Positions 58,851-63,324 of a stretch of DNA of 64,000 bases are shown here, piece after piece. How positions within the stretch are numbered: the first letter of the stretch is position 1; each line of letters starts with the position of its first letter. The position numbers were made by a program, and so were the translations under genes. The notes below the pieces were generated by a model that was not told the origin of the DNA, searched no databases, and saw only the letters and a list, made by a program, of their open reading frames with translations. The stretch comes from Eledone cirrhosa (Eukaryota). Location: assembly GCA_964016885.1 (NCBI GenBank), contig OZ024745.1, positions 95,914,001-95,978,000 on the forward strand, read 5' to 3'.

Positions 58851-59202
58851 TCTTATATATTTGATATATATTTATCCTTTTGGATTTTAGTCTTCAAATT
58901 TATTATTATTACTATCTCTCTCTCTCTCTCTCTCTATATATATATATATATATATATATATATATATATATATATATATATATATATATATATATATATA
59001 TATATATATATATATATATATATATATATATATATATATATAAATTGGAATAAATGCTCTGAAATAGCGATATATATGTGAATATAGACATAGAATATTC
59101 GAAAATATTCTGTATGTTTATAATAAACATTTTGAAGACCTAATCGCTATAGAATAGAATACGTCACGTATTACAATTAGATTCTCGATAAAAGCAAGGG
59201 AA

Positions 59203-59245
59203 GTAATCTACGCGTTTCATTCTTGTTAGAAATCATCAGGACTAC
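59203..59245 (-). ncRNA. Type I hammerhead ribozyme (first of 4 minus-strand copies, every 310 bp to 60133-60175)
   Basis: Reverse complement of the motif at 60293-60335. Confidence 0.8.
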
Positions 59246-60292
59246 ATATCCAGTGCTTTTATCGAGAATGACACAGCTAGAGACTTATAGAATACTTAGC
59301 TGTGTACAGGAACTGGTTTGAAAGAGCGGTTGCCGGTCCGGCAGAAATTAGAAATTGGAATAAATGCTCTGAAATAGCGATATATATGTGAATATAGACA
59401 TAGAATATTCGAAAATATTCTGTATGTTTATAATAAACATTTTGAAGACCTAATCGCTATAGAATAGAATACGTCACGTATTACAATTAGATTCTCGATA
59501 AAAGCAAGGGAAGTAATCTACGCGTTTCATTCTTGTTAGAAATCATCAGGACTACATATCCAGTGCTTTTATCGAGAATGACACAGCTAGAGACTTATAG
59601 AATACTTAGCTGTGTACAGGAACTGGTTTGAAAGAGCGGTTGCCGGTCCGGCAGAAATTAGAAATTGGAATAAATGCTCTGAAATAGCGATATATATGTG
59701 AATATAGACATAGAATATTCGAAAATATTCTGTATGTTTATAATAAACATTTTGAAGACCTAATCGCTATAGAATAGAATACGTCACGTATTACAATTAG
59801 ATTCTCGATAAAAGCAAGGGAAGTAATCTACGCGTTTCATTCTTGTTAGAAATCATCAGGACTACATATCCAGTGCTTTTATCGAGAATGACACAGCTAG
59901 AGACTTATAGAATACTTAGCTGTGTACAGGAACTGGTTTGAAAGAGCGGTTGCCGGTCCGGCAGAAATTAGAAATTGGAATAAATGCTCTGAAATAGCGA
60001 TATATATGTGAATATAGACATAGAATATTCGAAAATATTCTGTATGTTTATAATAAACATTTTGAAGACCTAATCGCTATAGAATAGAATACGTCACGTA
60101 TTACAATTAGATTCTCGATAAAAGCAAGGGAAGTAATCTACGCGTTTCATTCTTGTTAGAAATCATCAGGACTACATATCCAGTGCTTTTATCGAGAATG
60201 ACACAGCTAGAGACTTATAGAATACTTCCTGTACACAGCTAAGTATTCTATAAGTCTCTAGCTGTGTCATTCTCGATAAAAGCACTGGATAT

Positions 60293-60335
60293 GTAGTCCT
60301 GATGATTTCTAACAAGAATGAAACGCGTAGATTAC
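60293..60335 (+). ncRNA. Type I hammerhead ribozyme (first of 10 plus-strand copies, every 310 bp to 63083-63125)
   Basis: gtagtc-CTGATGA-t-ttct-aaca-agaa-t-GAAA-cgcg-TA-gattac; helix I extended by a perfect 16-bp stem attctcgataaaagca/tgcttttatcgagaat; predicted cleavage after GUA (60329). Confidence 0.85.
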
Positions 60336-63324
60336 TTCCCTTGCTTTTATCGAGAATCTAATTGTAATACGTGACGTATTCTATTCTATAGCGATTAGGT
60401 CTTCAAAATGTTTATTATAAACATACAGAATATTTTCGAATATTCTATGTCTATATTCACATATATATCGCTATTTCAGAGCATTTATTCCAATTTCTAA
60501 TTTCTGCCGGACCGGCAACCGCTCTTTCAAACCAGTTCCTGTACACAGCTAAGTATTCTATAAGTCTCTAGCTGTGTCATTCTCGATAAAAGCACTGGAT
60601 ATGTAGTCCTGATGATTTCTAACAAGAATGAAACGCGTAGATTACTTCCCTTGCTTTTATCGAGAATCTAATTGTAATACGTGACGTATTCTATTCTATA
60701 GCGATTAGGTCTTCAAAATGTTTATTATAAACATACAGAATATTTTCGAATATTCTATGTCTATATTCACATATATATCGCTATTTCAGAGCATTTATTC
60801 CAATTTCTAATTTCTGCCGGACCGGCAACCGCTCTTTCAAACCAGTTCCTGTACACAGCTAAGTATTCTATAAGTCTCTAGCTGTGTCATTCTCGATAAA
60901 AGCACTGGATATGTAGTCCTGATGATTTCTAACAAGAATGAAACGCGTAGATTACTTCCCTTGCTTTTATCGAGAATCTAATTGTAATACGTGACGTATT
61001 CTATTCTATAGCGATTAGGTCTTCAAAATGTTTATTATAAACATACAGAATATTTTCGAATATTCTATGTCTATATTCACATATATATCGCTATTTCAGA
61101 GCATTTATTCCAATTTCTAATTTCTGCCGGACCGGCAACCGCTCTTTCAAACCAGTTCCTGTACACAGCTAAGTATTCTATAAGTCTCTAGCTGTGTCAT
61201 TCTCGATAAAAGCACTGGATATGTAGTCCTGATGATTTCTAACAAGAATGAAACGCGTAGATTACTTCCCTTGCTTTTATCGAGAATCTAATTGTAATAC
61301 GTGACGTATTCTATTCTATAGCGATTAGGTCTTCAAAATGTTTATTATAAACATACAGAATATTTTCGAATATTCTATGTCTATATTCACATATATATCG
61401 CTATTTCAGAGCATTTATTCCAATTTCTAATTTCTGCCGGACCGGCAACCGCTCTTTCAAACCAGTTCCTGTACACAGCTAAGTATTCTATAAGTCTCTA
61501 GCTGTGTCATTCTCGATAAAAGCACTGGATATGTAGTCCTGATGATTTCTAACAAGAATGAAACGCGTAGATTACTTCCCTTGCTTTTATCGAGAATCTA
61601 ATTGTAATACGTGACGTATTCTATTCTATAGCGATTAGGTCTTCAAAATGTTTATTATAAACATACAGAATATTTTCGAATATTCTATGTCTATATTCAC
61701 ATATATATCGCTATTTCAGAGCATTTATTCCAATTTCTAATTTCTGCCGGACCGGCAACCGCTCTTTCAAACCAGTTCCTGTACACAGCTAAGTATTCTA
61801 TAAGTCTCTAGCTGTGTCATTCTCGATAAAAGCACTGGATATGTAGTCCTGATGATTTCTAACAAGAATGAAACGCGTAGATTACTTCCCTTGCTTTTAT
61901 CGAGAATCTAATTGTAATACGTGACGTATTCTATTCTATAGCGATTAGGTCTTCAAAATGTTTATTATAAACATACAGAATATTTTCGAATATTCTATGT
62001 CTATATTCACATATATATCGCTATTTCAGAGCATTTATTCCAATTTCTAATTTCTGCCGGACCGGCAACCGCTCTTTCAAACCAGTTCCTGTACACAGCT
62101 AAGTATTCTATAAGTCTCTAGCTGTGTCATTCTCGATAAAAGCACTGGATATGTAGTCCTGATGATTTCTAACAAGAATGAAACGCGTAGATTACTTCCC
62201 TTGCTTTTATCGAGAATCTAATTGTAATACGTGACGTATTCTATTCTATAGCGATTAGGTCTTCAAAATGTTTATTATAAACATACAGAATATTTTCGAA
62301 TATTCTATGTCTATATTCACATATATATCGCTATTTCAGAGCATTTATTCCAATTTCTAATTTCTGCCGGACCGGCAACCGCTCTTTCAAACCAGTTCCT
62401 GTACACAGCTAAGTATTCTATAAGTCTCTAGCTGTGTCATTCTCGATAAAAGCACTGGATATGTAGTCCTGATGATTTCTAACAAGAATGAAACGCGTAG
62501 ATTACTTCCCTTGCTTTTATCGAGAATCTAATTGTAATACGTGACGTATTCTATTCTATAGCGATTAGGTCTTCAAAATGTTTATTATAAACATACAGAA
62601 TATTTTCGAATATTCTATGTCTATATTCACATATATATCGCTATTTCAGAGCATTTATTCCAATTTCTAATTTCTGCCGGACCGGCAACCGCTCTTTCAA
62701 ACCAGTTCCTGTACACAGCTAAGTATTCTATAAGTCTCTAGCTGTGTCATTCTCGATAAAAGCACTGGATATGTAGTCCTGATGATTTCTAACAAGAATG
62801 AAACGCGTAGATTACTTCCCTTGCTTTTATCGAGAATCTAATTGTAATACGTGACGTATTCTATTCTATAGCGATTAGGTCTTCAAAATGTTTATTATAA
62901 ACATACAGAATATTTTCGAATATTCTATGTCTATATTCACATATATATCGCTATTTCAGAGCATTTATTCCAATTTCTAATTTCTGCCGGACCGGCAACC
63001 GCTCTTTCAAACCAGTTCCTGTACACAGCTAAGTATTCTATAAGTCTCTAGCTGTGTCATTCTCGATAAAAGCACTGGATATGTAGTCCTGATGATTTCT
63101 AACAAGAATGAAACGCGTAGATTACTTCCCTTGCTTTTATCGAGAATCTAATTGTAATACGTGACGTATTCTATTCTATAGCGATTAGGTCTTCAAAATG
63201 TTTATTATAAACATACAGAATATTTTCGAATATTCTATGTCTATATTCACATATATATATATATATATATATATATATATATATATATATATATATATAT
63301 ATATATATATATATATATATATAT

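What the first reader, a model, noticed from the sequence alone, without database searches (positions are those of the whole stretch)
59043..63250. Hammerhead-ribozyme 310-nt multimer: candidate cephalopod retrozyme / circular-RNA element
Seen: 14 copies of one hammerhead in an array of apparently identical, non-coding 310-bp units. Each has a complete core (CUGAUGA, GAAA, GUA site), the palindromic helix III ACGCGU, and a 16-bp outer stem. Established: minimal type I hammerheads with palindromic helix III occur in Penelope-like elements (PLEs) and metazoan non-LTR retrozymes (tandem units of a few hundred bp), can cleave as dimers, and release monomers that circularise. Inference: this is a young insertion of multimeric cDNA from a 310-nt self-cleaving circular RNA, mobilised in trans by PLE RT/GIY-YIG; PLE remnants occur nearby, one ending ~200 bp upstream. 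A repeat finder would call it an ordinary satellite.
Basis: partly seen in the sequence, partly recalled or inferred. Interest (0 to 1): 0.9.

Follow-up and report, generated by a model that had tools for sequence, protein, structure and literature searches.

The report
Two-armed hammerhead retrozyme insertions
A 310-base non-coding repeat with a predicted self-cutting RNA motif sits at over a thousand places in this animal genome, mostly as two back-to-back arrays with fixed, unequal ends, likely the footprint of a Penelope-type reverse transcriptase copying one RNA, probably a circle, from both cut DNA strands.

Summary
The 14 identical hammerhead units form two divergent arms: 3.8 units on the minus strand and 9.8 on the plus strand, with both outer ends in (TA)n.

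This is the rule for the family. The genome has 4,177 exact hammerhead matches and about 1,300 copies of each of two fixed 3' ends, about 34 nt apart. All 63 divergent end pairs found on part of one chromosome combine one end of each kind. Both arms carry the same haplotype in 42 of 44 insertions (chance 0.13). Arms run through the cut site, and private variants are fixed across whole arrays as often as founding by one unit predicts.

Inverted copy, 30-40-nt tail and (TA)n target are Penelope-like element (PLE) hallmarks. Best reading: a non-LTR retrozyme inserted as ready-made multimers by twin-primed PLE reverse transcription, mostly of a monomer circle, not grown by unequal crossover. A few insertions point to mixed multimer templates.

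Cleavage, circular RNA and the partner PLE are untested. The element class is known; this insertion anatomy was not found in print for retrozymes.

The parts
58935..59042 (.). left (TA)n tract, the insertion target
59042..60227 (-). minus arm, 3.83 identical 310-bp units, 4 hammerheads; outer 3' end is the long 'B' end (unit position 166, counting from the predicted cut)
60226..60227 (.). head-to-head junction, 2-nt overlap; arms start at unit positions 222 (minus) and 207 (plus)
60226..63258 (+). plus arm, 9.78 identical units, 10 hammerheads; outer 3' end is the short 'A' end (unit position 132-139, blending into AT)
60269..60357 (+). first plus-strand hammerhead with outer 16-bp stem: helix I 60293-60298/60330-60335, core 60299-60305, U.U pair 60306/60319, helix II 60307-60318, GAAA 60320-60323, palindromic helix III 60323-60328, predicted cut after 60329
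60330..60639 (+). one unit, cut to cut: the predicted 310-nt monomer or circle
60427..60464 (+). two adjacent stem-loops conserved with compensatory changes in sister families; the A end falls at the 3' side of the second loop (60459-60461); predicted docking site of the reverse transcriptase
60459..60496 (+). the 'tail' between the two fixed 3' ends (unit positions 130-132 and 163-167), present at one end of each insertion only
63251..63325 (.). right (AT)n tract
57245..58915 (+). neighbour, not part of the element: 3' part of a Hydra-clade PLE (endonuclease end to 57740, terminal repeat with decayed hammerhead-like motif, ending about 58915 at the microsatellite that received the retrozyme)
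63326..63505 (.). neighbour: small fold-back insertion with unequal arms between (TA)n tracts, likely another PLE terminal-repeat family
   Evidence: relatives in 35 fetched sequences, some overlapping

Best explanation
This is one of over a thousand young insertions of a non-coding 310-nt hammerhead repeat (a non-LTR retrozyme), each likely written into a (TA)n tract by a Penelope-type enzyme that primes the same RNA, probably a monomer circle, from both cut DNA strands. Steps: (1, inferred) arrays are transcribed, cut by the hammerhead, probably as dimers because helix III is only a palindrome, and ligated to 310-nt circles; (2, inferred from PLE biochemistry) a PLE RT-endonuclease binds the stem-loops around unit positions 98-135 and nicks both strands of (TA)n; (3, shown as a pattern, inferred as mechanism) one strand starts cDNA at position 130-132 and the other at 163-167, so each insertion has one end of each kind; (4, inferred) each RT runs round the template for a variable number of turns (mean about 5, up to 19), passing the cut site; (5, shown as a pattern) the two cDNA ends join head-to-head at arbitrary positions, mostly over 1-8-nt microhomology or short templated inserts. 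A minority of insertions used mixed multimeric templates. The partner PLE is not identified.
For: Family-wide architecture: 1,242 A ends and 1,312 B ends, reversed controls 0; of 196 ends listed on C1 1-218.5 Mb, 63 divergent pairs, 63 of 63 A+B, none A+A or B+B, p 2e-19. Of 73 insertions read, 64 are two-armed (one duplicate left out) and all 64 are A+B; 40 of these were picked as A+B pairs, the other 24 were not. 121 of 128 outer flanks are (AT)n. Same haplotype in both arms in 42 of 44 insertions with both arms of 2 units or more, 19 haplotypes, chance 0.129. 5' ends within 5 nt of the cut: 2 of 128, expected 4.1; 118 of 128 arms exceed one unit. 12 of 57 insertions carry a variant fixed in every unit and seen in no other insertion; founding by one random unit predicts about 8. 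Of 71 minor variants in turns covered by both arms, 61 are not mirrored. Inherited variants hit 8 of 29 non-core and 0 of 14 core hammerhead positions, p 0.039, while single-unit changes do hit the core (6 cases). Across families 10 of 15 hammerhead pairs show double changes, and the helix III centre swaps GC for UA keeping the palindrome. PLEs of this genome insert the same way, with two fixed ends and inverted arms. Literature: inverted truncated copy plus 30-40-bp tail in PLEs (PMC8557442); a PLE protein cuts and extends both strands and starts at two RNA sites that bound the tail (PMC11167929); circle-templated tandem cDNA by PLEs proposed for retrozymes (PMC7229834).
Against: No RNA evidence at all: no listed run is on record as RNA. 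The hammerhead looks weak (U.U at the base of helix II; closing helix III in a monomer costs about 5 kcal/mol; helix II probability about 0.15 in the modelled circle); 8 of 9 frog retrozyme dimers did not cleave in one study, and cleavage was not needed for PLE insertion in vitro. Two insertions show variants mirrored at the same turn in both arms (L063 one variant; L074 a haplotype switch after two turns), L034 has variants repeating at 7 units and L100 switches haplotype in one arm only: a uniform monomer circle does not explain these. Arm lengths correlate weakly (rho 0.29, p 0.02) and 5' ends are slightly non-uniform (KS p 0.03). No autonomous PLE examined shares the docking region; the two Hydra families measured have tails of 68 and 77 nt, not about 34. 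8 of 73 insertions are single-armed (one cut by masked sequence).
Confidence: 0.62

Rival explanations
1. Same PLE twin priming, but the usual template is a long, uncut multimeric transcript of an existing array; the hammerhead is weak or incidental and no circle is needed.
For: Mirrored variants in L063 and L074, 7-unit periodicity in L034, one-arm switch in L100; weak ribozyme by model; hammerhead mutants did not affect PLE insertion in vitro. Running through the cut site and one haplotype per insertion fit this too.
Against: Arrays carry 0.16 single-unit variants per unit; copying them as multimers should often mirror such variants in both arms, seen in only 2 of 64 insertions, and would not fix private variants in all units (12 of 57). 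The core is spared by inherited variants.
Confidence: 0.22
2. The second arm is a fold-back copy of the first cDNA or of an antisense template (the self-priming model for head-to-head PLE repeats), not an independently primed cDNA.
For: Would give one haplotype per insertion and mirrored variants (L063, L074); microhomology and short templated inserts at junctions; model proposed in PMC3846280.
Against: No excess of near-symmetric junctions: 10 of 64 within 25 nt, expected 10.5; A arm longer in 31 and B arm longer in 33, so neither end type is always the copy; L100 cannot be made from either arm alone; a PLE protein extends both target strands in vitro.
Confidence: 0.1
3. Ordinary satellite: a monomer lands, then grows by unequal crossover, or arrays spread as circular DNA.
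For: Proposed for frog retrozyme arrays (10.64898/2026.07.22.740005). L034's 7-unit repeat and the L060/L098 duplicate show some later DNA-level change.
Against: Does not predict two fixed ends 34 nt apart, one of each per insertion, divergent arms with polarity set by the ribozyme strand, (TA)n targets, or single-unit variants that stay single.
Confidence: 0.05
4. The inversion and the perfect identity are artefacts of long-read assembly (fold-back reads, collapsed repeats).
For: Zero mismatches in this locus; no raw host reads could be laid across a junction.
Against: The two flanks are different sequences, arms are unequal, the two ends differ systematically, junction positions vary, and 35 of 57 insertions hold single-unit variants.
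Confidence: 0.01

Closest known systems
Metazoan non-LTR retrozymes (Cervera and de la Pena 2020, PMC7229834; results and discussion read, supplement not readable), e.g. mussel 350-390-bp and axolotl 330/350-bp units
   Same: Non-coding, low-GC tandem unit of a few hundred bp with one canonical type I hammerhead; U.U at the base of helix II as in axolotl HHR_Amex2; one-pair helix III with palindromic loop as in HHR_Amex1; thousands of copies; PLEs in the same genome.
   Different: Insertions here are two divergent arms with two fixed ends in (TA)n; the main text of that paper has no 'inverted', 'orientation', 'microsatellite', 'octopus' or 'cephalopod'. Cleavage and circles were shown there, not here.
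Insertion structure of endonuclease-positive Penelope-like elements (PMC8557442 passages and Hydra section; PMC3846280 passages; PMC11167929 main text)
   Same: Inverted 5'-truncated copy, 30-40-nt tail at one end, (TA)n target, two RT start sites downstream of a hammerhead.
   Different: No RT-endonuclease ORF; both arms are long multimers of one 310-nt unit, so haplotypes can be read on both arms and show a common template and a strict one-start-site-per-strand rule.
Retrozymes as non-autonomous PLE derivatives (Li, Clavereau, Pollet 2026, bioRxiv 10.64898/2026.07.22.740005; abstract to discussion read, supplements closed)
   Same: Link to PLE terminal repeats: unit positions 278-305 match the hammerhead of an intact Hydra-clade PLE in this genome at 25-26 of 28 columns.
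   Different: That paper covers vertebrates plus insects and a coral, proposes local amplification to make the tandem arrays, and does not discuss orientation or tails; here the arrays appear to be made at insertion.
Non-autonomous Chlamys elements such as MRC1 (PMC8557442, passage)
   Same: Non-autonomous PLE passengers with multicopy head-to-tail insertions.
   Different: Those share 3' sequence with their autonomous family and most Chlamys lack hammerheads; here the unit has a hammerhead and no partner with a shared 3' region was found.

Membership tests
Metazoan non-LTR retrozyme | tandem units of 150-450 bp, GC under 50%, non-coding | tested here: met
   310 bp, 34% GC, longest stop-free frame 59 aa
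Metazoan non-LTR retrozyme | canonical type I hammerhead in each unit | tested here: met
   14 of 14 cores; core invariant and helices covary across families; Rfam only below threshold
Metazoan non-LTR retrozyme | many dispersed genomic copies | tested here: met
   4,177 exact core matches; 1,242 and 1,312 ends
Metazoan non-LTR retrozyme | highly self-paired predicted monomer | tested here: met
   -72.5 kcal/mol, z -4.38, 0 of 100 shuffles as good
Metazoan non-LTR retrozyme | self-cleavage of monomer or dimer | not testable with these tools
   model only: monomer helix III unfavourable, intermolecular palindrome -7.5 kcal/mol
Metazoan non-LTR retrozyme | expressed as linear and circular unit-length RNA | not testable with these tools
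   no holder on record as RNA; contigs cannot show it
Metazoan non-LTR retrozyme | target-site duplication longer than 4 bp when present | tested here: inconclusive
   flanks are (AT)n; one informative 12-nt repeat near the ends of L083, others within microsatellite
Metazoan non-LTR retrozyme | no primer-binding site or polypurine tract | not tested
   no LTR structure seen; PBS and PPT not searched
PLE-type insertion (non-autonomous passenger) | inverted 5'-truncated copy, head-to-head | tested here: met
   64 of 73 insertions read, plus one duplicate
PLE-type insertion (non-autonomous passenger) | 30-40-nt tail at one end only | tested here: met
   ends at 130-132 and 163-167; 63 of 63 pairs one of each
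PLE-type insertion (non-autonomous passenger) | AT-rich or (TA)n target | tested here: met
   121 of 128 flanks
PLE-type insertion (non-autonomous passenger) | 3' sequence shared with an autonomous PLE | tested here: inconclusive
   only the hammerhead stretch is shared with one Hydra family; docking region not found in the PLE ends examined; other families not surveyed
Autonomous PLE | RT plus GIY-YIG ORF | tested here: not met
   no ORF in the unit; none seen joined to arms at the junctions read or upstream of 30 sister-family loci (output partly cut)
Minimal PLE hammerhead (min-HHR) | no helix III nucleotides, long helix II, short helix I | tested here: not met
   helix I 6 bp, helix II 4 bp, helix III palindrome present (definition)
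Free viroid-like circle moving between hosts | present in other organisms without host DNA | tested here: not met
   3 of 3 low-depth runs tested also hold this host's SINE and PLE pieces

The most novel reading that the evidence does not exclude
Each insertion is a frozen record of the PLE transposition step: a dimeric RT-endonuclease loads once on a single 310-nt RNA circle, primes its two start sites from the two cut strands of (TA)n, one site per strand, and both enzymes roll round the same circle. This would explain in one mechanism the PLE tail, the head-to-head repeat and retrozyme tandem arrays, and offers a 310-nt RNA as a minimal PLE cargo.
Probability: 0.5. Interest if true: 0.8.

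Novelty: new variant of a known kind. Interest (0 to 1): 0.62.

Why it matters
How PLEs make their inverted repeats and tail is described as unresolved (PMC8557442), and mobilisation of animal retrozymes by PLEs has rested on co-occurrence and terminal-repeat similarity. Here more than a thousand young insertions carry readable haplotypes on both arms, so models can be tested by counting: one start site per strand, one template per insertion, arrays made at insertion. It also names two exact start sites and a docking structure for an in vitro assay. The element class itself is known, and mollusc members are already described.

Tried and rejected
DNA search of the genome with the whole unit returned nothing, not even the window itself; the tool skips common words, so patterns were used. 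Pfam did not recognise the PLE fragments or a full Hydra ORF and PDB sequence search gave nothing significant; clade assignment rests on the motifs listed in PMC8557442 and on 1,404 full-length-range relatives, many with PF26215 and one listed with PF01541.

Horizontal spread or a free circle: 20 runs under 17 organism labels hold the unit, some as a 340-nt closed contig, but X1, X10 and X11 also hold this host's SINE and PLE pieces at broadly the same proportions as the host-like run X2, so these are traces of host-type DNA and the closed contig is a collapsed tandem. The other 13 or so holders were not tested this way. No RNA holder was listed; expression is untested. X24 raw reads had 0 matches in 1.9 Gb and gave no test.

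Partner search: two Hydra families, Neptune-like ends seen in flanks and 30 sister-family loci showed no PLE with the docking region. Target-site duplications could not be read in (TA)n. In one search the outer stem was one column out of register in the alignment (30% paired) and is not counted as support. The 272-bp insert in L036 matched nothing fetched. Earlier scan notes hold no look-alike sequence.
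Full report
Observation. The window holds 14 copies of the hammerhead in identical 310-bp units, as reported. They form two arms: 59042-60227 on the minus strand (3.83 units) and 60226-63258 on the plus strand (9.78 units), meeting head-to-head over two shared bases, with (TA)n at both outer ends. Unit positions below count from the first base after the predicted cut (60330). The unit is non-coding (longest stop-free frame 59 aa), 34% GC, and folds better than 100 of 100 shuffles (z -4.38).

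The ribozyme. Helix I has 6 pairs, helix II 4 pairs over a U.U mismatch, helix III is the palindrome ACGCGU. By PMC4209133 (first part read) that is the canonical metazoan type I form that works as a dimer, not the minimal PLE form. Modelling agrees: closing helix III in a monomer costs about 5 kcal/mol, the intermolecular palindrome gives -7.5. Twelve hand-picked distinct hammerheads from this and other repeat families of the genome align without gaps; the core is invariant apart from position 7, 10 of 15 pairs show double changes and the helix III centre changes GC to UA keeping the palindrome (the motifs were found by a stem-requiring search, so pairing is partly built in, the palindrome centre is not). 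Inherited variants of this family touch 8 of 29 non-core and 0 of 14 core positions (p 0.039), while single-unit changes hit the core six times. Rfam has no match at gathering score and a weak HH9 match below it. Activity is untested.

The family. The 43-nt core matches 4,177 times exactly, control 0. Twelve insertions picked by that core showed ten with the window's layout, one single arm and one cut by masked sequence. Outer ends fell at two places only. Patterns for each end followed by AT found 1,242 (A) and 1,312 (B) sites. Of the 196 ends listed on the first 218.5 Mb of C1, 126 form 63 divergent pairs within 20 kb, all one A and one B (p 2e-19), median span 2.5 kb; 70 ends were unpaired by pattern. 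I fetched 40 of the pairs and the first 20 further unpaired ends; 14 of those 20 were also two-armed A+B (one a duplicate of L060), 6 single-armed. In all, 73 insertions: 64 two-armed, all A+B, of which 24 were not selected for that; 8 single-armed; 1 duplicate left out. The last element-specific bases are at 130-132 and 163-167, a tail of about 33-35 nt, and 121 of 128 flanks are (AT)n. Scaling gives roughly 1,300-1,700 insertions (my estimate).

Template. Both arms have the same haplotype in 42 of 44 insertions with both arms of two units or more, among 19 haplotypes, chance 0.129; the exceptions are L074 and L100. 118 of 128 arms exceed one unit, and 5' ends are not enriched at the cut (2 of 128, expected 4.1), so the template has no physical end there. 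Junction offsets show no fold-back excess (10 of 64 within 25 nt, expected 10.5) and neither arm type is longer (31 versus 33). Single-unit variants occur at 0.16 per unit; if an array is founded by one random unit, about 8 of 57 should carry a private variant in every unit, and 12 do ('private' within this sample). Of 71 minor variants in turns covered by both arms, 61 are not mirrored. This favours a monomer, hence a circle. Against a uniform circle: L063 and L074 mirror variants at the same turn, L034 repeats variants at 7 units, L100 switches in one arm; arm lengths correlate weakly (rho 0.29). Some templates were therefore mixed multimers, or one arm was sometimes copied from the other.

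Machinery. PLE insertions carry an inverted truncated copy and a 30-40-bp tail at one end, and Hydra and Naiad clades target (TA)n (PMC8557442, passages and Hydra section). A purified PLE protein cuts and extends both target strands and starts at two RNA sites that bound the tail (PMC11167929, main text). Circle-templated tandem cDNA with PLEs as the likely helper was hypothesised for retrozymes (PMC7229834, results and discussion). The genome has abundant PLEs: the window's neighbour family (52,552 first-look candidates, frames to 741 aa) and a second family whose hammerhead motif matches 14,156 times and which has an intact 758-aa frame between direct repeats in L196. Both show Hydra motifs (RWR, DKT, CxCX5C, YRDD) and insert with two fixed ends and inverted arms. 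The second shares 25-26 of 28 columns with unit positions 278-305. But their tails are 77 and 68 nt and neither has the docking region, so the helper is not identified. Sister retrozyme families (3,279 matches to a shared motif; 73-81% identity; about 320-bp unit) use the same two ends and keep two stem-loops just before the A end, 100% and 97% paired with compensatory changes (loci chosen by the downstream motif).

Other data. Twenty runs under 17 organism labels hold the unit, none on record as RNA. X2 looks like host or close-relative DNA and may be the assembly's source; X1, X10 and X11 hold low levels of the unit together with host SINE and PLE pieces, so they show traces of host-type DNA, not a travelling circle.

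Novelty. Retrozymes, mollusc members included, and PLE inverted-plus-tail insertions are known. I found no description of two-armed, tailed, (TA)n-targeted retrozyme arrays or of a cephalopod retrozyme in searches, in term look-ups in PMC7229834, the 2026 preprint, PMC7761336 and PMC13282606. The library lacks most subscription papers, and the supplements of PMC7229834 (unreadable) and of the preprint (closed) may list such families. Verdict: a real, young, high-copy retrozyme family whose insertion anatomy makes the PLE mechanism countable; interest 0.62.

Noticed in passing
window 57245-58915; L108-L130: Very abundant Hydra-clade PLE family; its terminal repeat has a type I hammerhead-like fold with core CAGAAGA (A in place of the usual U4) and U.U at the base of helix II in about 30 motif matches among fetched loci; the window copy is decayed. 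Two ends 77 nt apart.
   Followed up: partly
L196:4962-7238 (-): Apparently intact Hydra-clade PLE (758-aa open frame between direct terminal repeats); family has 14,156 exact hammerhead-motif matches, many as tiny fold-back insertions.
   Followed up: partly
L067, L087, L131-L160: Older sister retrozyme families of about 320 bp with the same two ends and docking stem-loops; some carry the U3-A8 core swap described for PLE hammerheads.
   Followed up: partly
L051, L055, L098, L119, L120, L146: Further tandem or inverted hammerhead repeats (periods about 430-470 bp) with the alternative helix III palindrome; likely more retrozyme families.
   Followed up: partly
window 63326-63505: Small fold-back insertion with arms differing by about 80 nt between (TA)n tracts; relatives in 35 fetched sequences; likely another PLE terminal repeat.
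   Followed up: partly
L036:3599-3870: 272-bp GC-rich foreign sequence captured at the junction between the two arms; no match in fetched DNA; may be a template switch to a cellular RNA.
   Followed up: partly
L034+L035, second insertion: 308-bp unit variant; two variants each recur exactly 7 units apart in a 19-unit arm (7-mer template or later block duplication).
   Followed up: partly
L060 and L098: Two neighbouring insertions about 3 kb apart with the same junction and haplotype, one next to masked sequence: local duplication or assembly duplicate.
   Followed up: no
window about 24900-33250: Tandem array of about 640-bp units containing a 37-bp subrepeat; no hammerhead found by the motif searches.
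   Followed up: no
window 37558-38254: Decayed fragment of another Hydra-like PLE (35-50% protein identity to the two families above).
   Followed up: no
window 46350-46405: tRNA-like match just at Rfam threshold, probably the head of a SINE.
   Followed up: no
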